A stretch of 64,000 nt of DNA from Thermoplasmata archaeon (GCA_020348445.1 CP070751.1:2149186-2213185), one strand, 5' to 3'; counted from the first letter of the stretch, positions 1,333 to 20,980 are shown. The notes: a model not told the origin generated them from the sequence alone. Program-made: numbers and translations.

Positions 1333-2115
1333 TTGCCGGCAATTCGCGCAGACAGGCTCAAAGAGGACAGAATGGAGAGGTCCAAGAGGATAAAGTGGCT
1401 GGACTTAGCATCCATTGGAAAATCCAAGGTTCTGGTTGTGGGTGCAGGTGCCATAGGCAACGAGGTCTGTAAGAACCTGTTGCTTTCTGGGTATCAAAAC
1501 ATCACGATCGTGGACATGGACCAAATCGAGCGCTCGAACCTGAACAGATGTCTATTCTTCTCGGATCTGGATGCAGAAAACAAACGATCGAAGGCCGAGG
1601 TCGTAGCCCAGAAACTCAAGACGCTAAATGACAGCGTGAAGGTCGCATACCACACAGAAAAAATCCAAAATCTGCCTGAGGACTTCATCCCTTCTTTTGA
1701 TTTGGTCTTCGGATGCCTCGACAATGTTGCGGCCCGACTTCATGTGAATGCGTTTTGTTATCATCACAAGGTTCCCTATATCGATGGGGCCACGGATGGT
1801 TTCATAGGAAAGGTTCAGGTTGTCATGGCTCCAAATACTCCATGCCTTGAGTGCACTATGAACAAAACACATATGAAGGTGATGGAGATGCGTTTTTCCT
1901 GCACAGGAAAAGATGTGACGTTCTTCCAACAAAAACTTCCTGCAGAGATAACCACAACGAGCATAATCGCTGCAGTGGCGGTGAGAGAAGGATTGAAGAT
2001 CTCATCTAATATCGAATCTCACTTTTCGAAGAAGATATTCTACTACAACGGCGCAAAGAACATACAAGAGGTTTTAGAAATAGAAATCAATCCCAACTGT
2101 CCGCATCATGTTTAA
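1333..2115 (+). CDS. E1-like activating enzyme (ThiF/MoeB/UBA family), E1a
   Basis: VLVVGAGAIGNE nucleotide-binding motif, D.D.IERSNLNR, GCLDN, IDGATDG, Zn site CLEC...CPHH, candidate catalytic Cys in RFSCTG. Confidence 0.9.
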   Translation: MPAIRADRLKEDRMERSKRIKWLDLASIGKSKVLVVGAGAIGNEVCKNLLLSGYQNITIVDMDQIERSNLNRCLFFSDLDAENKRSKAEVVAQKLKTLNDSVKVAYHTEKIQNLPEDFIPSFDLVFGCLDNVAARLHVNAFCYHHKVPYIDGATDGFIGKVQVVMAPNTPCLECTMNKTHMKVMEMRFSCTGKDVTFFQQKLPAEITTTSIIAAVAVREGLKISSNIESHFSKKIFYYNGAKNIQEVLEIEINPNCPHHV

Positions 2116-2121
2116 CAGGGA

Positions 2122-2874
2122 TTACAATCCAGAGAGGGCTCCTGCCAAGGCGATGGAGTTCGAATAGTCCTTTTTAGAACGGGATGTATCGATAAAGACC
2201 TTGTTGATGTTGACGATGGGGGCTCCAATTGCTTTTCCTCCGCCCATGAAGTGCAATGCCCTGAACATCAGATTTCCAGTGATTCCATCAGGAGCCACTA
2301 TGATATTGGAGGATTCAAGGGCCTCCTCGAGCTGGATTCCGAAATGTTTCGAAGAGATGCCCTTCTTGTTTGCCATTTTAGTGAGTTTCTCCCCCTGTTG
2401 GAGGGTCTTATCCACTGTTTCGTCCCTGCCCATGTCCTCGAATCTTCCCCCAGAGAGCACACCTGCCTTAGTCTCGACATTGAACTTCGAAAGAAGTTCA
2501 GATCCCAAGGATATGATTTTCAGTTTCTCTTCCAGGCTTACTCCTTCATCAACACCCACTGGCGCAAGTAGTATCAATTTCTCGTCACCCATGACCAAAA
2601 AGGCGATTCTGAGGATATTCTTAACCTCCAATCTGGATTTTACGTTGGTAAGCACGGTTTTCGCCTCTAAAGAGCCCCTGACTGCGGCATTTATTTCACC
2701 CTTTTTTAAGGCTTCCACAAGGCTAAGGGCATCGTTGTAAACTGTAACATCCGCAAAACCCTCGCGCTCTGCTGTCTTTACGCTACTTTCGACAGCAAAG
2801 CCTCCACCATCGCCTATTCCGATCTTTGCCTTATTATTCTTAGCCATTTCCTGTAATTGAGATATAGCGAACAT
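2122..2874 (-). CDS. mtxX: MtxX / methanogenesis marker protein 4 family (phosphate acyltransferase-like fold)
   Basis: Motifs AAVRGSL, LLAPVGVDEG, GVLSGGR.ED.GR, APDGITGNL.FRALHF, FIDTSR resemble the MtxX family as I recall it. Confidence 0.7.
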   Translation of the reverse strand: MFAISQLQEMAKNNKAKIGIGDGGGFAVESSVKTAEREGFADVTVYNDALSLVEALKKGEINAAVRGSLEAKTVLTNVKSRLEVKNILRIAFLVMGDEKLILLAPVGVDEGVSLEEKLKIISLGSELLSKFNVETKAGVLSGGRFEDMGRDETVDKTLQQGEKLTKMANKKGISSKHFGIQLEEALESSNIIVAPDGITGNLMFRALHFMGGGKAIGAPIVNINKVFIDTSRSKKDYSNSIALAGALSGL

Positions 2875-2973: not shown

Positions 2974-3429
2974 TCATTGGGCAAAATCAGCACTGTTTTG
3001 GTACTCCTCAGATGGATAATAGGCACCAGACAAGCCACAGAAGGGGCAAATGACGTCTGTAAAATAAGATTCACTCACAAAAAAGATACAGTTACATCTT
3101 GGACATATTATATCCTCTCCAAGATAATATGAACGTGTATAATCCAATATTTGATCATTTTGCTCAATTATATACATACTCGGCTTCACAGTCTTTTTCC
3201 AGTCGAAAAAGGAGAAGGCTGTTGTAAACAAAAAGAGTGGAAGGAGAATGAATAAAAGAAGTATCATCTCGATTTGTGCCTCACCGTATTTATTGATATT
3301 GATTATGGCAGAATAGTGGTTGTTTGAATACGCACAAACAAAGAGCCAAACCATGAGCAGAAAAATCCCCAGCATCAGAGAATCCCCAAACAATCTTATC
3401 ATCTTGATGGTGCAGACAGTTTTTGGCAA
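2974..3429 (-). CDS. 2-TM membrane protein with C-terminal Zn ribbon (paralog of 7462..7935)
   Basis: Two hydrophobic helices around NIN.YGEA..EMI; tail CPRC-x15-CPFCGLSG; start could be the ATG at 3402. Confidence 0.75.
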   Translation of the reverse strand: MPKTVCTIKMIRLFGDSLMLGIFLLMVWLFVCAYSNNHYSAIININKYGEAQIEMILLLFILLPLFLFTTAFSFFDWKKTVKPSMYIIEQNDQILDYTRSYYLGEDIICPRCNCIFFVSESYFTDVICPFCGLSGAYYPSEEYQNSADFAQ

Positions 3430-3643: not shown

Positions 3644-4612
3644 CTACTGGATCTTTACATCCTTTCTTATTTCTTTACCGCATACAAAACAGGAGTCATT
3701 TCTTTCAAGGGGCAGAACCGAGTAATTATTATTCAGAAAATCCATCAAAAGTACGCCTTTTAAAGTGGGCAGCCCACATACGATCTTCATTGCCTCGTTG
3801 GCCTGCACGCCACCCACTATTGAGGCTACACTTGAAAACGATGCTACAGCCCCAACATCGTACCCATCACAGGGATTTGAAAGCTCCATGATCTCGGCGT
3901 ACCGATCCAAGGGTATGGTGCATGCAAGACAAGCTCCATCTGGCAAATATGTCTGGACTCTGCCCTGAAACTCAGAAATCCCACCATCCACCAGTGGAGT
4001 GGAATTTTTTACACAGAAAGATGCAAGCCAGACCCTTGCCGGCATGTTGTCCAGGCCACTTAAAATCACATCAGCATTCAGTTTTTGCTCATCACATTCC
4101 TCGATCCTTTTTGGAATCGATTCAATTTTTGTATAAGGACTGTTTTCTTTTATCTTCTTTGCCAGAACCTCAGCCTTGTTCCTTCCAACATCCTCCTTCT
4201 TAAACAGGCTCCTGCTCACATTTGAGAGCTCCACAGTGTCGTAATCCACGATTTTTATGGTTCCGAATCCAAGATAGGCAAGGTTCTTTACTATCTCGTT
4301 TCCAAGAGCTCCGGCCCCCACAACCAAAGCATTGGCTTTCCTCAGCTTTTTCTGCCTATCTCCAAGTGAGATCATCTGCCTTGCCCAAATATAATCTACG
4401 ATGACCTCGTATGAAGGTTTGATATCTTCCTCAAAAGACGCTTCCTCCTCATCCTTCTTTACAAATATCAGGTTCGTTAGTTCGGGCTCGATTTCTAATT
4501 TACTGCAGATCTTATTCTTTAGTTCCTCCTCATCCTCATATTCAACTTCAAAAGATGAAACTGAAGGCAAAACAACTTTTACCCTCTTCTTACTTCTATC
4601 ACCGTGGGACAT
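3644..4612 (-). CDS. E1-like activating enzyme with N-terminal ubiquitin-like (beta-grasp) domain, E1b
   Basis: ARQ, LVVGAGALGNE, DYD.VELSNVSR, GLDN, LVDGG, Zn site CLAC...CFVC, candidate catalytic Cys in SNPCDG. About 70 extra N-terminal residues (KVVLP..SFEVE...LKNKICSKLEIEPELTNLIF) resemble the ubiquitin helix/strand pattern. Confidence 0.88.
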   Translation of the reverse strand: MSHGDRSKKRVKVVLPSVSSFEVEYEDEEELKNKICSKLEIEPELTNLIFVKKDEEEASFEEDIKPSYEVIVDYIWARQMISLGDRQKKLRKANALVVGAGALGNEIVKNLAYLGFGTIKIVDYDTVELSNVSRSLFKKEDVGRNKAEVLAKKIKENSPYTKIESIPKRIEECDEQKLNADVILSGLDNMPARVWLASFCVKNSTPLVDGGISEFQGRVQTYLPDGACLACTIPLDRYAEIMELSNPCDGYDVGAVASFSSVASIVGGVQANEAMKIVCGLPTLKGVLLMDFLNNNYSVLPLERNDSCFVCGKEIRKDVKIQ

Positions 4613-4651: not shown

Positions 4652-4903
4652 TTATTCGTCTTTTCCGCCAACGATGTCCAAGGGCATGATGGCAAGCTGA
4701 GAGTTCTCCACGATACCAAGTTCCTCTACAGTCCTGTTTTCATCCAAAACCTCGCCGCCGTACATAAGGGCCACCGCTGCGCTGTTTATGCCAAATGCCC
4801 TACATACCTCCCTTTTCACCATATTGATGGTGTGTCTTGGATCCACATCGATTTCAGCAAGGCCGGCCTCTTCGCCAATGGGTGCTTGTACCATTACCTT
4901 CAT
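4652..4903 (-). CDS. Ubiquitin-like protein precursor (mature end G79-G80, KDE pro-peptide)
   Basis: Aligns by eye to ubiquitin (DVDPRHTINMVK ~ EVEPSDTIENVK; LMYGGEVLDENRTVEELGI ~ LIFAGKQLEDGRTLSDYNI). The DNA reads ATC GTT GGC GGA AAA GAC GAA TAA. Confidence 0.9.
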   Translation of the reverse strand: MKVMVQAPIGEEAGLAEIDVDPRHTINMVKREVCRAFGINSAAVALMYGGEVLDENRTVEELGIVENSQLAIMPLDIVGGKDE

Positions 4904-4941
4904 ATCTTTTATCCCCCTATTTTCTTGTATTTCTTTAACAT

Positions 4942-6228
4942 CTATCCACCATGGGATACATTTACCGTGATTGCAACCTCGGCAATATATAGATTCCTAT
5001 CTTCAGCCCTTATTTTTATTTGATAGGTGCCGTTTGTAAGTAATTCTGTATCAAAGTAAGTGAGGTAAACGAGCTGATCATAATGGGTTTCGTTTACATG
5101 GGTCCAATCAACACTCCCGTTCCGAAAGAAAAACTGCACTTCATGAACATTATTCTCCACATCTGCAACCACTGCATAAACAGGGATGACACCGTCGATT
5201 TCATCACCATCGCGGGGTTCTAAAAATCTCGGCTCTGGTATATCTGGAGTATTATCTATAACGAACAGTTCCGACATCCCTTCAAAAGTCCTTCCCTTGG
5301 TATCTGTGAAGTTCACTTTGATATGATAGGTACCCTCATTGTGTAACCTTGTGTCAAATGCGAGGTGGTAACTGTTTTCAGAATAAGTGCCAACATTTCC
5401 AAGGTAATTCCATCCCAGACTAGTCTGACCCAAATAGAACCTCAATCCTTCGGCGGTAATCCTCCCGTCTAAGACAGTAATATTCGCAAAAACATTCATT
5501 TGATCCCTGAAAATCGGTGTTCCCAGTTGGTTTTTATACAACTCTCCGAAAAGCAGGACGTCATCCACACTTGAATGCTTCGAATTCTCATTTTGGTTTT
5601 TCGGGACAAACGGGCCTCCTATGAGCATGCTCAAAAGTACAGCAATGGTTACAAAGGCTATGATTTTTCTATATGAATTCTTTGGCTCTTCTCGCAAGGG
5701 TTTGACCTCCCCCTCATTATCTTCCGTTTGAAAAGTGGGCTTTGGTGGTTTGGGAGGAGACGAGAAAGAATCAGGAATCTTCTCCTTTTCATCGGAAAAA
5801 ACATGCACCTGGTCATCTTCGAGTTGGATCACATTTTCGTTTTTGTCAAGTGTAAAAAATGCCAATTCCTCCTTCTTGGGATCCACTATCAAGGCCGTTA
5901 CATAGTCTGAGAACTGCTGAAAGTTCCTTTGGGTGATGATATCGATTGGAGACATGAACAAACCAAAACCTGGATGGGAATGGTACCAACCCATTATCCT
6001 TCCCTGAATCTCCCCGGATAGTATCCTGTCTGTTATTTCTGCTATGCTTTTGGGATGCAACGAGGCCATTGTGGATTGCGAATCCTGCTCCCCGGTAATG
6101 GCCTCCTCAATTAAAATTGTATGATTCTCAGCATATCCTACGAGGAGTCCTATTATCTCGAAATCAGTGGCCTTGGCCTTCTCCATAATACTGTCAAGAA
6201 CCTTTTTCGGGATGCTGACATAAAACAT
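4942..6228 (-). CDS. Membrane-anchored Rpn11-like JAB/MPN+ (JAMM) isopeptidase with extracellular Ig-like domains
   Basis: FEIIGLLVG (catalytic Glu) and GWYHSHPGFGLFMSPIDIITQ (JAMM motif, about 5930-5990); TM IIAFVTIAVLLSMLIGGPF preceded by YRK; C-terminal Ig repeat FDT.LLTNGTYQIKIRAED. Confidence 0.88.
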   Translation of the reverse strand: MFYVSIPKKVLDSIMEKAKATDFEIIGLLVGYAENHTILIEEAITGEQDSQSTMASLHPKSIAEITDRILSGEIQGRIMGWYHSHPGFGLFMSPIDIITQRNFQQFSDYVTALIVDPKKEELAFFTLDKNENVIQLEDDQVHVFSDEKEKIPDSFSSPPKPPKPTFQTEDNEGEVKPLREEPKNSYRKIIAFVTIAVLLSMLIGGPFVPKNQNENSKHSSVDDVLLFGELYKNQLGTPIFRDQMNVFANITVLDGRITAEGLRFYLGQTSLGWNYLGNVGTYSENSYHLAFDTRLHNEGTYHIKVNFTDTKGRTFEGMSELFVIDNTPDIPEPRFLEPRDGDEIDGVIPVYAVVADVENNVHEVQFFFRNGSVDWTHVNETHYDQLVYLTYFDTELLTNGTYQIKIRAEDRNLYIAEVAITVNVSHGG

Positions 6229-6652: not shown

Positions 6653-7342
6653 CTATCCGCGTTTTATGGGAAATCCGAACATCCTGCAGATCTTGGCAAC
6701 CTCCTGGCATTTTTTTGTCTTGTAGGCGCTGTAAGGATTTGGGTCAGAGAGAAGGAAATAGAGGGCATTTATCACGGCTGCCAGTTTGGTGTTGGGTAGC
6801 CACTTCTTGCCTAGAATACTAACGCAGACCTTCCCTTTTTTGTGGGCAATGATATTGGGATGGGAAATATCTGTCAGCCATGTCACAGATGGAGGCTTGT
6901 AGGGATGTAGGTAAGACAGGGTCATTTTGAACTCATGCCATTTCACATACTCGACAAAGGGCCAGACACCCCTGTCGGCAAGATCCTTGACATAACCTCT
7001 TTCACATCTCAGCTTTCCGGTGTAAGTCATGAGATCCACCATTTTCACAAGGGGGAACTGGGTTCTCAGATAGTTGTACTCCTCGATCAACTCAGCCTCG
7101 TCTATTGCGGCAAAAATTCCAAGGGGCATAAGCCCCAGAACATCCGAATCTCCCATCTTCAGGTCACCTAGGGTAACCTCTTCAGAAATGACATTACCAT
7201 GCTGTACAAAACAAAGGTTTTTACTCTTAAGATTCATTGAGTTGCAAATATAATGCTTGAGCTTCCATAATGGGCAAGATGGTTTTATGTCCAAAGCTAT
7301 GGAAAACCCGTCACCTATTGGTGCGTAAACTACAAGCTGCAT
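6653..7342 (-). CDS. Ubl-E2 fusion: N-terminal ubiquitin-like domain plus ubiquitin-conjugating (UBC) domain
   Basis: UBC signature HPYKPPSVTWLTDISHPNI...GKVCVSIL...W.P...VINALYFLLSDPNP with the active-site Cys codon at 6824-6826. The N-terminus MQLVVYAPIG...MPLGIFAA parallels the free Ubl MKVMVQAPIG...MPLDIVGG. Confidence 0.9.
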   Translation of the reverse strand: MQLVVYAPIGDGFSIALDIKPSCPLWKLKHYICNSMNLKSKNLCFVQHGNVISEEVTLGDLKMGDSDVLGLMPLGIFAAIDEAELIEEYNYLRTQFPLVKMVDLMTYTGKLRCERGYVKDLADRGVWPFVEYVKWHEFKMTLSYLHPYKPPSVTWLTDISHPNIIAHKKGKVCVSILGKKWLPNTKLAAVINALYFLLSDPNPYSAYKTKKCQEVAKICRMFGFPIKRG

Positions 7343-7461: not shown

Positions 7462-7935
7462 TCATCGCCTGATGTTCCTTATGATCCTTACACTTGGTCT
7501 TGCCTCATCTTGGGAATGGGTCCCTGTCAAACCGCAATTCGGACAGGTTATAAGCCCGTTTGAACACGTTAAATTCGAATCAAATATGAATTGACATCTG
7601 GGACATACTGCAACTTTCTCTTGGAGGAATTGATAGGTGGTTGGGGTGTCAATCAGCAAATACTTATGGGACATAATCTTTCCCTTGGCCTTCCATGTCT
7701 GCCTCCAATCCATAAAGGATAATGCAACCGTGAGCATGAACAAAGGTAATAGAAAGAAAACCAGGACTATCATCTCGACATGGGCCTCGCCGTAGTTGTT
7801 GATATTTACAGTTGTGCGGTAATCATTGGAGAGATAAGCCGATAAAAACAGCCAAATCAACATAAGAAAAGAACCGAGCATTAAAAAATCCCCGACCAGT
7901 CTTAGACGTTTCATCTTATCGATTTTGCCTGCCAT
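7462..7935 (-). CDS. 2-TM membrane protein with C-terminal Zn ribbon (paralog of 2974..3429)
   Basis: RLVGDFLMLG..L...WLF..AY..N.Y....NIN.YGEAHVEMI shared with the paralog; tail CPRC-x16-CPNCGLTG. Confidence 0.75.
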   Translation of the reverse strand: MAGKIDKMKRLRLVGDFLMLGSFLMLIWLFLSAYLSNDYRTTVNINNYGEAHVEMIVLVFFLLPLFMLTVALSFMDWRQTWKAKGKIMSHKYLLIDTPTTYQFLQEKVAVCPRCQFIFDSNLTCSNGLITCPNCGLTGTHSQDEARPSVRIIRNIRR

Positions 7936-16434: not shown

Positions 16435-16827
16435 CTAGGGTTTTCCCGCACCTTGAGTTTTTCTTAACCGAAGACGCTTACCTGCAGGAAAGAACAACCC
16501 AAGTAAAAAAAGGATCAACATACAAGGCATTATGACAAAGAGGGTGAGGATGGTAATGGCAGATGGTAAATTACCACCGATGCTCCTAAGTGCAGCCTGA
16601 ATCGCGATAATAAATATGAACATCGTGATTAGGGTCATTAACACATAGAGGGTTTCCTGAAAGGAGTACCGCCAATCCTCTTTTCCCCTGGGGTATCTCA
16701 ATCCAAGGTAAATGAGCCCAAAAAATATTATTATGCACAGGGCCCACCATAAAGGAACGCCCAGCCAAAGCAACATAACGAAGCCCCCGAGTAAGAGAAA
16801 CAGAAGCATCCAATCCAGATCATTCAC
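16435..16827 (-). CDS. Small multi-TM membrane protein
   Basis: About 4 hydrophobic helices; the start overlaps the AAA gene stop by 8 nt. Confidence 0.65.
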   Translation of the reverse strand: MNDLDWMLLFLLLGGFVMLLWLGVPLWWALCIIIFFGLIYLGLRYPRGKEDWRYSFQETLYVLMTLITMFIFIIAIQAALRSIGGNLPSAITILTLFVIMPCMLILFLLGLFFPAGKRLRLRKTQGAGKP

Positions 16828-19800
16828 CTCTATGCTCTTTGATGAAATTACTTAACCGTTTTTGTAAAACTACCTTTTTACCGTATGGTTTTAAGCCATG
16901 GCTCTTGCACTCGTTCTCCAGCTGGGATATTGTCATAATAGCTATGTCCTCGTCCGTGAGCATCACCGAGGGTGGAGGGGGGGGAGGAGGTGCGGGAGTT
17001 TGCGGGGGCCTCTCAAGGGGTTTTTGTACATTGGGGGCCTGTGGGGGAGGAGCTTGTAAGGGTGTTTGTGGCAAAGGAGGTAGGGGGACGGATTTCAATT
17101 CGGCTTTCTTGATATTTTCCTCCCATTCAATAACCGAGGGCTTGACCTTCTTTAATGCACTCTGTAGATGGGACATTTTAATGCCCAGAGGCTTTTTCTT
17201 GGATTTTTCGGGTCCAGAAAATATATCCTCTCCGCTTAAAGCCAAAAGCTTTGCTTCCTCCACAACTGCAAAAACATCCTCGCCACTGAAGCCCTCTGTT
17301 GCCTTTGCAAGGGTCTCAAAATCTATCTTGCCTATTTTCGGAACATCTTTCAGATTCATCTCAAAAATCTTCTTTCTAACAGAGATATCAGGGGGTGGTA
17401 CAAATATCTTTTTATCGAATCTTCCTCTCTTAAAAAGCGATGGATCCAGGGCATCGGGATTCTCGGACGCCCCAACAACCACAATAATATCGTTGGGCTG
17501 GATGTTATCCAACATTGACATGAATATGGACAATGCTTTTTTACCTTCATCAGTCTCAAGGTTTTGTTGCGATGCAATGGCCTCTAAATCAGAGATGAGC
17601 AAGATCGCAGGAGCCATGTCTCGAAGCGAGGACCAAAGACCTTTGATTGCCAATGTGCCTTCGGCATTTATGGCGTTTAGAAGCTCACTTCCCGTTATTT
17701 CTGAAAGGGGAATGCTATATTGATTTGAAATTGCCTTCATTAGATAGCTCTTACCGCAGCCAGGGGGGCTGTGAAGAAGAATCGCCCTGCCTGTTTTCAA
17801 CTTGAACTTCTCCACGAGCTTCCTTTTTGTTAAGGGCATAACCACCGATTCCCTAAGCTGTTTCTTGATATCTGTAAGACCAGCAACCTTATCAAGTGTT
17901 ACAATGGCCTTTTTTTCTCCCCTTACTACATCATGAACCTTTCTTTCGTAGCGCATTTTTATCCTTTCGTACTCCTCTTTCATGGTTAGTGATATGCTGG
18001 GCTTGATTCTGGGCAAAATATCAAGAAAATCCTTATGGGTTATGGTTGTAAGCTGCTTGGTTTTCATGGAGCGGCGCATGGCATTTGTTGCTCCTTCCTT
18101 TACTAAATTGGCCATGTCAGCTCCTGAAAATCCCTCTGTCCTCTTTGACAAGGTATTTAGGTTTATGTTCTCGGCAAGAGGTTTTCCAGCTAGATGCACC
18201 TTCAATATATCTATTCTTTCTTTATAATCTGGAGGAGGGACATAGATTATCTTATCGAACCTACCGGGACGAAGCAACGCGGGATCTATTAATTCTGGTT
18301 TGTTTGTGGAGCCCACGATTATTATACCTGTTGCCTTATCCATACCGTCCAGCTCGGAGAGCATAATGGACAGCAGCCTGGGCGTAACATCATCTGCAGA
18401 GTAAAGGTCCCTGCGTTTTGCTACTGCATCGATTTCATCAAAGAATATGATGGCCGGTTTTCTTTCCTTTGCAGTCTTAAACAGGGTCATCATCCTTGTT
18501 TCGCTCTCGCCGTACCACTTGGACATCAGATCCCCGCATTTAACAGTGAACATTTCCACGTTAAGTTCCGTGGCAAGGGCCTTCATAGTAAGTGTCTTTC
18601 CACACCCTGGGGCTCCAAAAAGAAGTATACCCTTTGCAGGCTCCACTCCGAATTGTTCGGCAATATCGGGTCTTAGTAGGGGAACTAGCACGCTTTCTTT
18701 TATGTCCATTTTCACATCTTCCAATCCCCCCACCTGATCGAATGTGGTCTTTCCCAAATCAGCCATTTCACTGACCCTGGCACCCACTGTACTTGCCCCC
18801 ACCTTGCTTGTGAAGTACTCCCTGAACATCTCCCTAACTACAAAGCTCGTAACAACTGTTGTGTAAATTGCACAACCTGCACCGATAAATATTAGTGTGG
18901 TTCCCATCATAACCAGCATTTCAGTTGAATTGAGGTAGCCAAACCAGTAAATTGCGGCAAAGGAAGAAAGTACTATGGTGCAGATGGAAAACATTGTAAC
19001 CTCCCTGAATTTCCAGCTTGTAAAAGGATAGGCCAGCCATTCGGTCAATTTTGTGAAGCTCAGACGCTTTTTCGAATCAATGAGGTAGGATAGCAAAAAT
19101 ATACCGAAACACCAGGCTGCGAGAACGAAGAACGGAAGCATGGATGTTGCAAAACCCTCTGCAAGAACCGAGCCTATTATATCACTTTCTGCAAGTCCTA
19201 CATCCCACATGACACTTGCTAAGGTGCCTGGGGTAAAGTTGGAGACCACGGGTTTTGAGAAAATCATGAAAGCTGTTGGGTGATCAGCTCCAGCCATAAG
19301 ACCCATCACATGATAATTGCTGGCACTAACCAGTAGAATTAGAAATACACCTGCGCACATGGAAACCGCTATTGCCAGGAATGTGGAAAAGACCATGATC
19401 GTGAATACAGGGACGATGAAGGGTACGCCGAATTTGGATAGGAAAATCATGAGAAAAACCAGATACCCGAACTTCCAATCGTAGAACGAGCAGAGCATTA
19501 CAACGAGGCTGAATACCAGAAACACCAGGCCGAACTCAGGGCTTTGATAGGCAGCGGATCCTGTAATAAACAGGCTTAACAAAAGCAGTGCTGAATATGG
19601 GAATTTATACGCAACCACGGCAACGAACAAGGAAATGATCAGAATCACCCACCAGGGATAAAATGGAATAAAAACCGCACCAAAAACGCCGAGCATGAAA
19701 AAGGCTATGGGAGTTATGATCCTGGGATGCTTTGTTTCCTTGGTAAATATGTCCCAAAACTTGGTTCTTAGGCCTTGGTTTTCCTCTTCGTTACCCTTAC

Positions 19801-20980
19801 CAAAGGTTTTTTTCTTCTCTGTAAGCTCAAGCAGCCTCTTTCGCTGTTTCTTATAGAACACCCAACAAAATGCAAGAGGAATGAACAGGGCACCTATAAT
19901 TCCCGCATAATCGTACCAATTGGGAAATCCCACAAACTCCCGCACCGGCTCAGCTTTTGCCTTGAAGGAGAATGTTATCTGGTTGTTGTTTTCATACGGA
20001 ATTGTAATCTCCCTTGTCTGCGTTCTCGAGTCATATTCCACCTCTATCACATAATCCCCAACATGGAACATTTCGGGAGCCATAAGGAGGCCCTTGGCGT
20101 TGGTCAGACCCGTATATACTATGCCTGTATCGTTCATTATTGTGACTGAGGCCCCAGATGCAGGTTGTTGGTATTGATCCAACACCTCGATTACCATGTC
20201 ATAGATGTAGATTGTATTGGACGGACCCACGGAATATCGATATATAGGGGAGGTAATTGAAGAATAATACTGATCGAACGCCGTTATATTAAATGATACA
20301 TTGGAGTCCCCCTCATACCCAAGGATTGTAGCGTTCATCAACGTTTGGCTTATGGAATTGAATGATGCATGACCATTCCGAGTTGCTCTTCCTGGAGTTT
20401 CGATTTCCCATGAAATCGTGGCGCTTGTTATGGGGACATCAGAGGATATGGATTGGATTCTGATTCCCACACTCTGATAGGGATTGGGATTCTCAGGCTC
20501 CATGTTCACAATGATATTTTCTTCAAAGGTGCCCCCGCTCCAGGAACCGTTTCTAGCCACTTCATATGAAAACTCTTGGGAGTATATTGGGACGTTTATC
20601 TCGTCATAAGCTACAGTATAGAAGTTTACAGATGTGTCGCCTGTATTTTGATAACCTGGTATTAAACAGTACATCTTAGTTTGGGCAGAATTCGCGTATT
20701 CAAAAGTGTATCCTCCCTGGGTTACGACACCATCTCTTGTGAAGTTGCAGAATAAATATGCGGAGTTGATCTGTTGGGAGGTGCTAGTAGAGGTTATGGT
20801 TACATTCACAGGTTCGAGATTATGGGGACTTGTAGGTGTAAAACTCAAAGCTAGGTTGTCGTTAAACTCCGTGCCCTGCCACATTCCCAGAACACTAAAT
20901 GAACATACAAGAATCACAGTCAATTGTGCAAGTACTGAGGTTATCACGATATTTTTCAATTTCATATTGATCTGAACCAC
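16820..20980 (-). CDS. Polytopic membrane protein fused to tandem Cdc48/VAT-like AAA+ domains; C-terminal Pro-rich linker and SAP-like domain
   Basis: Signal peptide, about 320 aa extracellular beta-rich region, many TM helices. D1: GAPGCGKT, KWYGESE, IFFDEID, DPALLRPGRFD. D2: SPPGCGKS, LISDLE, RGRFDK. Tail MTISQLENECKSHGLKPYGKKVVLQKRL. Confidence 0.88.
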   Translation of the reverse strand: MVQINMKLKNIVITSVLAQLTVILVCSFSVLGMWQGTEFNDNLALSFTPTSPHNLEPVNVTITSTSTSQQINSAYLFCNFTRDGVVTQGGYTFEYANSAQTKMYCLIPGYQNTGDTSVNFYTVAYDEINVPIYSQEFSYEVARNGSWSGGTFEENIIVNMEPENPNPYQSVGIRIQSISSDVPITSATISWEIETPGRATRNGHASFNSISQTLMNATILGYEGDSNVSFNITAFDQYYSSITSPIYRYSVGPSNTIYIYDMVIEVLDQYQQPASGASVTIMNDTGIVYTGLTNAKGLLMAPEMFHVGDYVIEVEYDSRTQTREITIPYENNNQITFSFKAKAEPVREFVGFPNWYDYAGIIGALFIPLAFCWVFYKKQRKRLLELTEKKKTFGKGNEEENQGLRTKFWDIFTKETKHPRIITPIAFFMLGVFGAVFIPFYPWWVILIISLFVAVVAYKFPYSALLLLSLFITGSAAYQSPEFGLVFLVFSLVVMLCSFYDWKFGYLVFLMIFLSKFGVPFIVPVFTIMVFSTFLAIAVSMCAGVFLILLVSASNYHVMGLMAGADHPTAFMIFSKPVVSNFTPGTLASVMWDVGLAESDIIGSVLAEGFATSMLPFFVLAAWCFGIFLLSYLIDSKKRLSFTKLTEWLAYPFTSWKFREVTMFSICTIVLSSFAAIYWFGYLNSTEMLVMMGTTLIFIGAGCAIYTTVVTSFVVREMFREYFTSKVGASTVGARVSEMADLGKTTFDQVGGLEDVKMDIKESVLVPLLRPDIAEQFGVEPAKGILLFGAPGCGKTLTMKALATELNVEMFTVKCGDLMSKWYGESETRMMTLFKTAKERKPAIIFFDEIDAVAKRRDLYSADDVTPRLLSIMLSELDGMDKATGIIIVGSTNKPELIDPALLRPGRFDKIIYVPPPDYKERIDILKVHLAGKPLAENINLNTLSKRTEGFSGADMANLVKEGATNAMRRSMKTKQLTTITHKDFLDILPRIKPSISLTMKEEYERIKMRYERKVHDVVRGEKKAIVTLDKVAGLTDIKKQLRESVVMPLTKRKLVEKFKLKTGRAILLHSPPGCGKSYLMKAISNQYSIPLSEITGSELLNAINAEGTLAIKGLWSSLRDMAPAILLISDLEAIASQQNLETDEGKKALSIFMSMLDNIQPNDIIVVVGASENPDALDPSLFKRGRFDKKIFVPPPDISVRKKIFEMNLKDVPKIGKIDFETLAKATEGFSGEDVFAVVEEAKLLALSGEDIFSGPEKSKKKPLGIKMSHLQSALKKVKPSVIEWEENIKKAELKSVPLPPLPQTPLQAPPPQAPNVQKPLERPPQTPAPPPPPPPSVMLTDEDIAIMTISQLENECKSHGLKPYGKKVVLQKRLSNFIKEHRGE

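What the first reader, a model, noticed from the sequence alone, without database searches (positions are those of the whole stretch)
4652..4903. Acidic ubiquitin-like modifier with a KDE pro-peptide and no K48/K63 equivalents
Seen: the mature form has only K2 and K30 (K30 aligns with ubiquitin K27). Positions matching K48 and K63 are E51 and E66. It has 13 D/E versus 6 K/R. GG is masked by KDE. Established: masked Ubls need a protease before activation. Inference: activation is gated by the adjacent membrane JAMM enzyme, and the modifier probably acts as a mono-tag or via atypical chains rather than as a K48-like degradation signal.
Basis: partly seen in the sequence, partly recalled or inferred. 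Interest (0 to 1): 0.72.

Follow-up and report, generated by a model that had tools for sequence, protein, structure and literature searches.

The report
Lysine-poor archaeal ubiquitin precursor
This 83-residue gene encodes a true ubiquitin-family protein of an uncultured archaeon, made with three extra residues behind its reactive Gly-Gly end and sitting between a ubiquitin-type protease and an activating enzyme; it belongs to a sizeable, apparently undescribed archaeal ubiquitin family that is strikingly poor in lysine, but it works by a principle already shown in other archaea and bacteria.

Summary
Window 4652-4903 (-) encodes an 83-aa protein ending in VGG-KDE. The mature form has Lys only at K2 and K30, with 13 D/E against 6 K/R. 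HMMER aligns K30, E51 and E66 with ubiquitin K27, K48 and K63.

It is a real ubiquitin-clade protein: Pfam ubiquitin scores above the cut-off, and the model's best structural matches are Caldiarchaeum ubiquitin bound to Rpn11 and human ubiquitin. No MoaD, ThiS or SAMP chains were among the rows listed.

It belongs to a family of at least 145 distinct sequences, mostly from Bathyarchaeia and rare in its own class. The family sits in a conserved JAMM-Ubl-E2-E1 cassette.

- **Lysines and charge:** K30 is invariant and no member has Lys at positions 51 or 66. Mean net charge is -5.3.
- **C-terminal tails:** they are 0-13 aa long and unconserved; 43% of members end at GG yet keep the JAMM neighbour.

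So JAMM trimming is needed here, with experimental precedent in CsRpn11 and BilC, but it is not the family's defining gate. K30 is probably structural. Reduced chain-building capacity is plausible but unproven, and K2 remains a candidate acceptor.

I rate it a new member of a known kind. The scan had already noted neighbouring genes of this locus.

The parts
4652..4903 (-). Ubiquitin-family precursor gene: 83 aa, made of an 80-aa mature core, a KDE tail and a stop codon
   Evidence: ORF. Pfam PF00240 35.7 bits against a cut-off of 25.4. AlphaFold model pLDDT 86.3 with a beta-grasp order of elements. Top fold matches are CsUb and ubiquitin.
4664..4669 (-). Codons of G79-G80, the reactive di-glycine
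   Evidence: Read from the sequence. GG is present in 142 of 145 family sequences and AG in 3.
4655..4663 (-). Codons of the K81-D82-E83 pro-peptide
   Evidence: Read from the sequence. Family tails are 0-13 aa long and not conserved. The E2's fused Ubl copy reads AA-IDE at the same place.
4814..4816 (-). Codon of K30, the equivalent of ubiquitin K27 and invariant in the family
   Evidence: Alignment. Present in 144 of 144 sequences. Also conserved in the Ubl domains of the E2 and E1. Its partner position 55 is D or E in 143 of 144.
4898..4900 (-). Codon of K2, the only other lysine of the mature form
   Evidence: Read from the sequence. Lys in 126 and Arg in 18 of 144 family sequences.
4911..4917 (-). 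GGGGGAT ribosome-binding-like run, 7 nt before the ATG
   Evidence: Read from the sequence. This is an inference only.
4942..6228 (-). Rpn11-like JAMM protease with one membrane helix (residues 189-207) and Ig-like outer domains. It is the presumed trimming and deconjugating enzyme.
   Evidence: Pfam JAB 41.8 bits. The HSHx7SxxD motif is conserved. The profile's best solved match is CsRpn11, 104.6 bits. Hydropathy scan. It lies directly upstream of the Ubl in 43 of 52 loci with room for it.
3644..4612 (-). E1 (ThiF-fold adenylating enzyme) with an N-terminal extension of about 85 aa, starting 39 nt after the Ubl
   Evidence: Pfam ThiF 183.5 bits. Its best solved match is the active adenylation domain of Uba1, 97.8 bits, above ThiF at 87 bits. 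An orthologue lies in the cassette in 56 loci.
6653..7342 (-). E2 (UBC fold with HPN and Cys) carrying a degenerate N-terminal copy of the Ubl
   Evidence: Pfam UQ_con 61.3 bits and ubiquitin 23.1 bits. 29% identical to the Ubl over 83 residues. Best solved matches are UBE2L3 and Rad6.
7462..7935 (-). Zinc-ribbon protein with two membrane helices; possible adaptor, E3 or substrate
   Evidence: ORF. Two hydrophobic helices. No RING or other Pfam hit above threshold. A homologue sits next to the JAMM in L006.
2974..3429 (-). Paralogue of that membrane zinc-ribbon protein
   Evidence: 44% identical to the 7462-7935 product. Two hydrophobic helices.
1333..2115 (+). Second ThiF-type E1-like gene on the opposite strand; its link to the Ubl is open
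   Evidence: Pfam ThiF 184.4 bits. No separate orthologue was found in related loci.

Best explanation
The gene encodes the conjugatable modifier of a ubiquitin-type E1-E2-JAMM system.

**Proposed steps**
1. The protein is made as a precursor with three residues (KDE) behind Gly80.
2. The cytoplasmic Rpn11-like domain of the membrane-anchored JAMM encoded 38 nt upstream cuts after G80.
3. The E1 encoded 39 nt downstream adenylates the freed glycine.
4. The UBC-type E2 takes the modifier over on its cysteine and passes it to lysines of targets. Given the membrane anchors of the JAMM and of the flanking zinc-ribbon proteins, this probably happens at or near the membrane.
5. The same JAMM takes the tag off again.

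The modifier has few basic residues. Its one invariant lysine (K30) most likely holds the fold together, as K27 does in ubiquitin. It is therefore expected to act mainly as a single tag, or at most in short chains through K2 or the N-terminus. Ubiquitin-like K48 or K63 chains are not expected.

**Shown here:** ubiquitin-family membership, fold, conserved GG, conserved gene neighbourhood, intact catalytic motifs of the partners, and family-wide lysine poverty.

**Inferred:** every biochemical step, the membrane site of action and the mono-tag mode.
For: **Identity and fold**
- Pfam ubiquitin scores above its cut-off.
- The model has pLDDT 86. Its top Foldseek match is Caldiarchaeum ubiquitin in complex with its Rpn11 homologue (TM 0.81, rmsd 1.5), followed by human ubiquitin and NEDD8.
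- VIA-align gives Z 13-14 for ubiquitin.
- In the profile search of the PDB, the best 60 of 428 matches are all ubiquitin, Rad23, Dsk2, NEDD8 or Caldiarchaeum ubiquitin chains.

**Gene neighbourhood**
- The order JAMM-Ubl-E2-E1 recurs in more than 50 loci of two archaeal classes.

**Partner enzymes**
- The nearest solved relative of the JAMM is CsRpn11.
- The E2 is nearest to eukaryotic UBCs.
- The E1 is nearest to the active adenylation domain of Uba1.

**Experimental precedent**
- CsRpn11 cuts its pro-ubiquitin exactly after GG, and E1 cannot activate the uncut form (PMC5654768; PMC6043591).
- BilC does the same for BilA, whose conserved Gly is followed by up to nine unconserved residues (10.1101/2023.09.26.559546).

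**Tails**
- 23 of 24 sequences in the window's subclade carry a tail, and all the tails differ.

**Lysines and charge**
- No Lys at positions 51 or 66 in 144 sequences. K30 is present in all 144, paired with D or E at position 55 in 143.
- K30 is also kept in the non-conjugated Ubl domains of the E2 and E1.
- Ubiquitin K27-D52 is a recognised salt bridge (10.1101/2024.12.07.627332).
- The Ubl is acidic (mean net charge -5.3), while its E1 (+9.9) and E2 (+4.6) are basic.
Against: No experiment exists for any member of this family.

- 43% of the family has no tail, so trimming cannot be the reason the JAMM is conserved.
- K2 is Lys in 87.5% of sequences. In Caldiarchaeum ubiquitin a lysine on the first strand (K4) was an acceptor in vitro (PMC5654768). 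Chains are therefore not excluded.
- K27-linked chains exist in eukaryotes, so a largely buried lysine is not proof against use (my own knowledge).
- Arg is depleted along with Lys. The low lysine count may be a by-product of selection for an acidic surface.
- The genome has other JAMM and E1 paralogues. Cognate pairing rests on gene adjacency alone.
Confidence: 0.62

Rival explanations
1. The modifier does build chains and serves as a degradation signal. Chains would form through K2, K30 or the N-terminal amine. They would hand substrates, for example membrane proteins, to an unfoldase and the proteasome.
For: K2 is Lys in 126 of 144 sequences and K30 in all 144. Caldiarchaeum ubiquitin was self-modified at three lysines in vitro, including one on strand 1 (PMC5654768).
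Against: K30 is conserved equally in Ubl domains that are never conjugated. It also pairs with a conserved acid like the structural K27-D52 pair of ubiquitin. K2 is replaced by Arg in 18 sequences, and 11 sequences have K30 as their only lysine. The AAA gene is not syntenic with the cassette in any related locus.
Confidence: 0.2
2. The cassette is an antiviral defence module of the Bil type (Ubl, E2, JAB, E1). The Ubl would be attached to virus proteins rather than to host proteins.
For: It has the same four components as BilABCD, including a conserved Gly followed by an unconserved tail that the JAB removes (10.1101/2023.09.26.559546).

Its distribution is patchy. It was found in 5 of 301 genomes of the window's own class, was not found in a closed genome of the same genus, and was found in 54 of 301 Bathyarchaeia.

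The flanking genes of the window are not shared with related loci. A small Hjc/Mrr-like nuclease gene lies about 4.5 kb downstream in 25 loci.
Against: The gene order differs: JAMM-Ubl-E2-E1 rather than Ubl-E2-DUB-E1. PADLOC gave no match for the Ubl or the E2, although that library may predate the Bil models.

All four proteins are nearer to eukaryotic and Caldiarchaeum forms than to the solved Bil proteins; for example the Bil Ubl 8tyz_B scores Z 10.8 against 14 for ubiquitin.

The Ubl is unusually conserved for a defence gene, at 55-61% identity between classes, with one cassette copy in every genome with a match but one. The membrane anchoring of the JAMM and zinc-finger proteins has no Bil counterpart that I know of.
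Confidence: 0.15
3. It is a sulfur-carrier or SAMP-type beta-grasp protein (MoaD/ThiS/Urm1-like). It would be activated by a ThiF-type enzyme for cofactor or tRNA thiolation.
For: The two E1-like neighbours also match the ThiF, MoeB and UbaA models, though below their cut-offs. The protein has a C-terminal GG.
Against: There was no ThiS or MoaD Pfam hit at E <= 0.1. All leading sequence and fold matches are ubiquitin-type. A UBC-fold E2 is part of the conserved cassette. The genome has five separate ThiS-family genes elsewhere.
Confidence: 0.02

Closest known systems
Caldiarchaeum subterraneum ubiquitin (CsUb) with its E1, E2, small RING protein and CsRpn11 (PDB 2MQJ, 6FNN; PMC5654768, PMC6043591)
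   Same: Both are single-domain ubiquitin-clade proteins. CsUb is the top fold match (TM 0.81) and scores 36.9 bits against the family profile. Both have a GG followed by a removable extension (9 aa there, 3 aa here). Both lie next to an Rpn11-like JAMM, which is the best solved match of the window's JAMM. Both come with a UBC-type E2 and a eukaryote-like E1.
   Different: Only 24% identical. CsUb has several lysines that were used in vitro (K4, K53, K68), while this family has none at the K48 or K63 positions. Here the JAMM is membrane-anchored. The E1 is short, with an N-terminal rather than a C-terminal extra domain. No RING protein is in the locus. The E2 carries a fused Ubl copy.
Eukaryotic ubiquitin, NEDD8 and the Rad23/Dsk2 UBL domains
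   Same: They share the fold (Z 13-14, rmsd 1.0-1.6 over 71-75 residues). The K27 equivalent and its acidic partner are conserved. Hydrophobic-patch positions are conserved (I9, M47, M73 against L8, I44, V70). All have a GG end, and ubiquitin is likewise made as a precursor.
   Different: About 25% identity. The family is acidic (net -7 here), whereas ubiquitin is near neutral. It has no Lys at the K6, K11, K29, K33, K48 or K63 positions. The tail reads LDIVGG rather than LRLRGG, so the Arg contacts used by Uba1 are missing. The beta1-beta2 loop is three residues longer.
Bacterial BilABCD (Ubl BilA, E2 BilB, JAB BilC, E1 BilD; PDB 8TYZ; 10.1101/2023.09.26.559546)
   Same: It has the same four-component set. 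A conserved Gly is followed by up to nine unconserved residues that the operon's JAB enzyme removes. No E3 is in the operon.
   Different: The gene order differs. The fold match is lower (Z 10.8). Bil Ubls often have two or three beta-grasp domains. Bil is a bacterial anti-phage system, whereas this family is archaeal and tied to membrane-anchored partners.
SAMP, Urm1, MoaD and ThiS beta-grasp modifiers of archaea
   Same: All are small beta-grasp proteins with a C-terminal GG that are activated by ThiF-fold enzymes. A JAMM enzyme removes SAMPs.
   Different: Those systems have no E2. They belong to a different sequence family, and there was no Pfam ThiS hit here. None of them appears among the listed fold matches. 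The genome has its own ThiS-family genes elsewhere.

Membership tests
Ubiquitin family (Pfam PF00240; ubiquitin clade of the beta-grasp fold) | Sequence match above the curated family threshold | tested here: met
   35.7 bits against a cut-off of 25.4, E 7.3e-9. The precomputed PF00240 domain is present on nearly all 102 homologues.
Ubiquitin family (Pfam PF00240; ubiquitin clade of the beta-grasp fold) | Beta-grasp fold whose nearest structures are ubiquitin-type rather than MoaD/ThiS-type | tested here: met
   The model has pLDDT 86.3. Foldseek's top matches are CsUb, ubiquitin and NEDD8 at TM 0.77-0.81. VIA-align gives ubiquitin Z 13-14, and no MoaD, ThiS, SAMP or Urm1 chain is among the 50 rows with Z >= 10.8.
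Ubiquitin family (Pfam PF00240; ubiquitin clade of the beta-grasp fold) | C-terminal di-glycine used for activation | tested here: met
   G79-G80 are read from the sequence. GG is present in 142 of 145 family members. Its use in activation was not testable.
Ubiquitin family (Pfam PF00240; ubiquitin clade of the beta-grasp fold) | Covalent attachment to target lysines through E1 and E2 | not testable with these tools
   Only the conserved neighbourhood with E1 and E2 genes can be shown.
Caldiarchaeum/Asgard-type archaeal ubiquitin operon | Rpn11-like JAMM encoded beside the ubiquitin gene | tested here: met
   The JAMM gene lies 38 nt upstream. The profile's best solved match is CsRpn11, 104.6 bits, E 4e-29.
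Caldiarchaeum/Asgard-type archaeal ubiquitin operon | UBC-fold E2 with HPN motif and catalytic Cys | tested here: met
   Pfam UQ_con 61.3 bits. HPN and a downstream Cys are read in the translation. Best solved matches are eukaryotic E2s.
Caldiarchaeum/Asgard-type archaeal ubiquitin operon | E1 with a C-terminal ubiquitin-fold domain (clusters I and II of PMC5654768) | tested here: not met
   E1b has 322 aa and its ThiF match runs to residue 308. The extra domain is N-terminal. In bathyarchaeial orthologues that domain scores as ubiquitin, 28 bits.
Caldiarchaeum/Asgard-type archaeal ubiquitin operon | Small RING-finger E3 in the operon | tested here: not met
   The two flanking zinc proteins gave no RING hit at E <= 0.1. 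Bathyarchaeial cassettes carry weak B-box-like proteins instead, 17-19 bits and below the cut-off.
BilABCD bacterial ubiquitin-like defence system | Operon of Ubl, E2, JAB and E1 in the order Ubl-E2-DUB-E1 | tested here: not met
   All four components are present, but the order is JAMM-Ubl-E2-E1 in more than 50 loci. In the window the E2 has moved upstream of the JAMM.
BilABCD bacterial ubiquitin-like defence system | Match to defence-system protein models | tested here: inconclusive
   PADLOC 2.0 gave no hit for the Ubl or the E2, and only generic E1 and JAB hits. The library dates from 2023 and may lack Bil models.
MoaD/ThiS/SAMP sulfur-carrier type modifiers | Match to the ThiS/MoaD family and pairing with an E1 without an E2 | tested here: not met
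   No ThiS hit at E <= 0.1. An E2 is part of the cassette. Five ThiS-family genes lie elsewhere in the genome.

The most novel reading that the evidence does not exclude
The family could be a naturally chain-poor ubiquitin that serves a membrane-tethered conjugation system without a RING E3 in Bathyarchaeia and a few Thermoplasmata.

In this genome it would coexist with a second, separate ubiquitin operon. That operon has a lysine-rich Ubl (11 Lys in 87 residues), a longer E1, an E2, an Rpn11-like JAMM and a RING/RWD protein.

One archaeal cell would then run two distinct ubiquitin codes: a single-tag code at the membrane and a chain-capable one in the cytoplasm. That would show that the split between mono-ubiquitin signalling and chain signalling arose outside eukaryotes.
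Probability: 0.18. Interest if true: 0.8.

Novelty: new member of a known kind. Interest (0 to 1): 0.5.

Why it matters
Eukaryote-like ubiquitin systems with an E2 have been worked out in archaea only for Caldiarchaeum, and described for Asgard archaea.

This gene belongs to a conserved family that places such a system in Bathyarchaeia, one of the most abundant archaeal groups in sediments, and in a few Thermoplasmata. The family was found in 54 of 301 sampled bathyarchaeial species. I found no paper on it in the searchable library.

Its modifier is a natural low-lysine ubiquitin. That makes it a convenient test case for two questions:
- whether chain building is needed for an early ubiquitin system to work;
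- what a membrane-anchored deubiquitinase does in a cell without endomembranes.

Tried and rejected
No binding prediction exists.
- **PADLOC** gave nothing for the Ubl or the E2.
- **NCBIfam** gave only a sub-threshold Rad23 hit for the Ubl.
- **Rfam** found no RNA family in the window.
- **The profile search of 1.84 billion representatives** was swamped by eukaryotic polyubiquitins, whose repeats add up. It showed only a handful of single-domain family clusters and added little.
- **Six literature searches** found no description of a bathyarchaeial or Thermoplasmata ubiquitin family. Subscription journals are not covered, so this is weak evidence of novelty.
- **A family tree** to show the direction of transfer between Bathyarchaeia and Thermoplasmata was not attempted. 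80 residues and no safe outgroup would not support one.
- **A functional link to the membrane AAA protein** at 16820-20980 was rejected for now. Neither it nor any other flanking gene is syntenic with the cassette in related loci.
- **Two calls failed for formal reasons:** a search term that was too short and a locus given where a genome handle was needed.

Full report
**Observation**

The minus strand of window 4652-4903 holds an 83-codon ORF.
- It starts at ATG 4901-4903, seven bases after a GGGGGAT run.
- It ends in Val-Gly-Gly-Lys-Asp-Glu followed by TAA.
- A residue count gives 6 K/R (K2, R23, K30, R31, R35, R57) and 13 D/E in residues 1-80, plus K81, D82 and E83 in the tail.
- HMMER aligns residues 17-73 with ubiquitin 14-70 without a gap, so K30, E51 and E66 stand at the places of ubiquitin K27, K48 and K63.

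**What it is**

The protein passes Pfam's own threshold for the ubiquitin family: 35.7 bits against 25.4. It has no hit to ThiS or MoaD.

An AlphaFold model built on 37 family sequences has mean pLDDT 86.3 and the beta-grasp order of elements.
- Foldseek ranks Caldiarchaeum ubiquitin bound to its Rpn11 homologue first (6FNN chain C, TM 0.81, rmsd 1.5). Human ubiquitin and NEDD8 follow.
- An independent all-against-all structural search gives ubiquitin Z 13-14, ISG15 and Dsk2 about 13, SUMO about 11.5 and the bacterial Bil Ubl 10.8. No MoaD, ThiS, SAMP or Urm1 chain appears in the 50 rows shown.
- A family profile searched against PDB sequences lists, among its best 60 of 428 matches, only ubiquitin-type chains. 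The best single domains are Rad23 UBL (39.6 bits) and Caldiarchaeum ubiquitin (36.9 bits).

This is a ubiquitin-clade protein, roughly equidistant (about 25% identity) from eukaryotic ubiquitin and from the one characterised archaeal ubiquitin.

**The family**

The protein has more than 100 homologue clusters in public data and 62 loci in species-representative genomes.
- Three loci are from MAGs labelled Thermoplasmata at 83-84% identity, and one more is at 63%.
- Nearly all the rest are from Bathyarchaeia at 53-61% identity.

145 distinct sequences were pooled.
- The core is 80 residues in 144 of them and ends in GG in 142.
- K30 is invariant (144 of 144).
- Position 2 is Lys in 126 and Arg in 18.
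- No sequence has Lys at position 51 or 66. Position 66 is always Glu or Asp.
- The mean is 2.4 Lys and 1.0 Arg against 8.7 Asp plus Glu, for a mean net charge of -5.3.

For the window's sequence alone, two lysines in 80 residues is only mildly unusual: P 0.11 against the window's proteins and 0.02 against its lysine-rich neighbours. Persistence across the family is what makes the trait real.

**Surroundings**

In more than 50 loci the gene sits in the same four-gene order on one strand: JAMM, Ubl, E2, E1.
- *JAMM.* Its domain keeps the HSHx7SxxD motif. Its profile is closest to CsRpn11 (104.6 bits), ahead of CSN5 and Rpn11.
- *E2.* It is closest to UBE2L3, Rad6 and UbcH5.
- *E1.* It is closest to the active adenylation domain of Uba1 (97.8 bits), above ThiF at 87 bits.
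- *In the window.* The JAMM ends 38 nt before the Ubl and the E1 starts 39 nt after it. The E2 has moved upstream of the JAMM and carries a degenerate copy of the Ubl, 29% identical, with AA in place of GG and IDE where the free Ubl has KDE.
- *Membrane association.* The JAMM has one hydrophobic helix (residues 189-207) followed by Ig-like domains. Two paralogous proteins with two membrane helices and a zinc ribbon flank the set.
- *In Bathyarchaeia.* The JAMM is instead fused to a multi-pass DUF998 domain. The E1 carries an N-terminal domain that itself scores as ubiquitin. The cassette is flanked by zinc-ribbon proteins with a weak B-box-like signature, one of them membrane-bound.

Membrane association of the system is thus a recurring theme. 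Earlier notes of this scan on the neighbouring genes say the same, and I confirmed those points only as far as stated here.

**The tail and the JAMM**

Established precedent is strong.
- CsRpn11 removes the nine-residue extension of Caldiarchaeum pro-ubiquitin exactly after GG. The uncut form cannot be activated by E1, and the same enzyme also removes ubiquitin from conjugates (PMC5654768; PMC6043591).
- In bacterial Bil systems the conserved glycine is followed by up to nine unconserved residues, which the operon's JAB enzyme removes (10.1101/2023.09.26.559546).

The present family shows the same picture.
- Tails are 0-13 residues long with no conserved sequence.
- 63 of 145 sequences have no tail at all.
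- Among loci with enough upstream DNA, 24 of 30 tail-less genes and 19 of 22 tailed genes keep the JAMM next door.

The conserved reason for the JAMM is therefore more likely deconjugation, with trimming as a second duty where a tail exists. In the window's own subclade (core ending in MPLDIVGG), 23 of 24 sequences carry a tail of 1-6 residues, and every one differs. So a cap is kept there even though its sequence is free.

I conclude that the KDE tail must be removed before activation, and that the adjacent JAMM is the best candidate to do it. Calling this a regulatory gate goes beyond the evidence. The genome holds one more Rpn11-like JAMM and three further Prok-JAB matches (one below the family cut-off), so the pairing rests on adjacency.

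**Lysines**

K30 is invariant, but three observations point to a structural role.
1. Ubiquitin K27 forms a recognised salt bridge with D52 (10.1101/2024.12.07.627332). It is, to my knowledge, the least exposed lysine of ubiquitin.
2. The D52-equivalent position 55 is Asp or Glu in 143 of 144 sequences.
3. The same lysine is kept in the E2's built-in Ubl domain and in the N-terminal Ubl domain of a bathyarchaeial E1, neither of which is a conjugated modifier.

K2 is the only other common lysine. It lies on strand 1. In Caldiarchaeum ubiquitin a strand-1 lysine (K4), next to K68 in space, was modified in vitro (PMC5654768). K2 is therefore a plausible acceptor, but 18 sequences have Arg there and 11 have K30 as their only lysine.

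Arg is as scarce as Lys, and the partner E1 and E2 are basic (mean net +9.9 and +4.6). The simplest reading is selection for an acidic surface that also leaves few acceptor sites, not a Lys-to-Arg 'lysine desert'.

The mono-tag idea is thus reasonable but unproven. I put it at roughly even odds within the main explanation.

**Distribution and role**

- In the window's own class the family was found in 5 of 301 sampled genomes (2 of 88 genera).
- It was not found in a closed 3.2-Mb genome of the same genus.
- In the bathyarchaeial class it was found in 54 of 301 genomes, one copy each.
- None of the window's flanking genes is shared with related loci.

The cassette therefore behaves as an accessory, transferable module whose main home is Bathyarchaeia. 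This keeps a Bil-like antiviral role alive as a rival, at about 0.15. Against that rival stand the different gene order, the high conservation of the Ubl and the closer likeness to eukaryotic-type enzymes.

The same genome holds a second, unrelated ubiquitin operon about 410 kb away (L065). It consists of:
- a 91-aa Ubl ending in GG-WIFQ, with 11 lysines;
- a 440-aa E1;
- an E2;
- an Rpn11-like JAMM with a C-terminal zinc ribbon;
- a 694-aa protein with RING-like and RWD-like parts.

Its E2 was found in all five genomes of the genus and nowhere else in the class sample. The contrast between a lysine-rich and a lysine-poor modifier in one cell is suggestive, but I did not pursue it further.

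**Comparison and novelty**

In kind, this is what has been shown for Caldiarchaeum: a ubiquitin precursor, an Rpn11-like trimming and deconjugating enzyme, an E1 and an E2.

It fails two features of that operon type: the C-terminal ubiquitin-fold domain of the E1 and the small RING protein. It adds membrane anchoring, an N-terminal Ubl domain on the E1 and, in this genome, a Ubl-E2 fusion.

I found no paper on a bathyarchaeial or Thermoplasmata ubiquitin family in the searchable library. That library lacks most subscription journals.

For the gene in question I rate it a new member of a known kind. The system around it is a variant of that kind.

**Not done**

Model coordinates could not be read, so burial of K30 is argued by homology only.

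Noticed in passing
L065:3969-9387 (G000:C1, about 410 kb downstream of the window): There is a second complete ubiquitin-type operon on one strand. It has a 91-aa Ubl ending in GG-WIFQ with 11 Lys, a 440-aa E1, a 178-aa E2, a 401-aa Rpn11-like JAMM with a C-terminal zinc ribbon, and a 694-aa protein with RING-like and RWD-like parts. Its E2 was found in all 5 genomes of the genus and in no other of 296 genomes of the class.
   Followed up: partly
L023:5807-6580 and L023:10213-10647 (likewise in most bathyarchaeial loci): Bathyarchaeial cassettes are flanked by two related zinc-ribbon proteins with a weak B-box-like signature (17-19 bits, below the cut-off). The upstream one ends in several membrane helices. 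These are possible E3-like partners and differ from the window's zinc-ribbon proteins with two membrane helices.
   Followed up: partly
L023:6636-7790: In Bathyarchaeia the JAMM domain is fused to a multi-pass DUF998 membrane domain, where the window's JAMM has a single helix plus Ig-like domains. The protease is the same but the membrane part has been swapped.
   Followed up: partly
window 4802-4804 (C34) and 4832-4834 (H24): Cys34 and His24 are invariant in the Ubl family. The K-x3-C spacing (K30, C34) is also kept in the Ubl domains of the E2 and the E1. No explanation was sought.
   Followed up: no
window 6653-7342 against 4652-4663: The linker of the Ubl-E2 fusion reads AA-IDE where the free Ubl reads GG-KDE. 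The tail seems to have been present already when the Ubl gene was copied and fused.
   Followed up: partly
window 2122-2874 (-): A homologue of methanogenesis marker protein 4 (MtxX) scores above the NCBIfam cut-off (207.7 against 190 bits). It sits between the two E1 genes.
   Followed up: no
G000:C1:4170447-4171600: A further ThiF-type gene lies directly beside a Prok-JAB gene, possibly a third modifier system. The genome also has five ThiS-family genes.
   Followed up: no
L015, L018, L033, L036: Four cassettes lie on contigs of MAGs labelled as bacteria (Methylomirabilota, Acidoferrum, Nitrospiraceae, Acidiferrales). Their Ubls are typical of Bathyarchaeia, so these are probably mis-binned archaeal contigs. 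Transfer was not excluded.
   Followed up: no
P0174 (286 aa), P0227 (295 aa), P0175 (190 aa): These are longer proteins in the representative library that carry a full family Ubl, at the start in P0174 and a little inside in P0175 and P0227. They may be further fusions or read-through gene calls.
   Followed up: no
L056:8232-8537 and 24 other loci, about 4.5 kb downstream of the Ubl: A small Hjc/Mrr-like nuclease gene of about 101 aa recurs downstream of the cassette in 25 loci.
   Followed up: no
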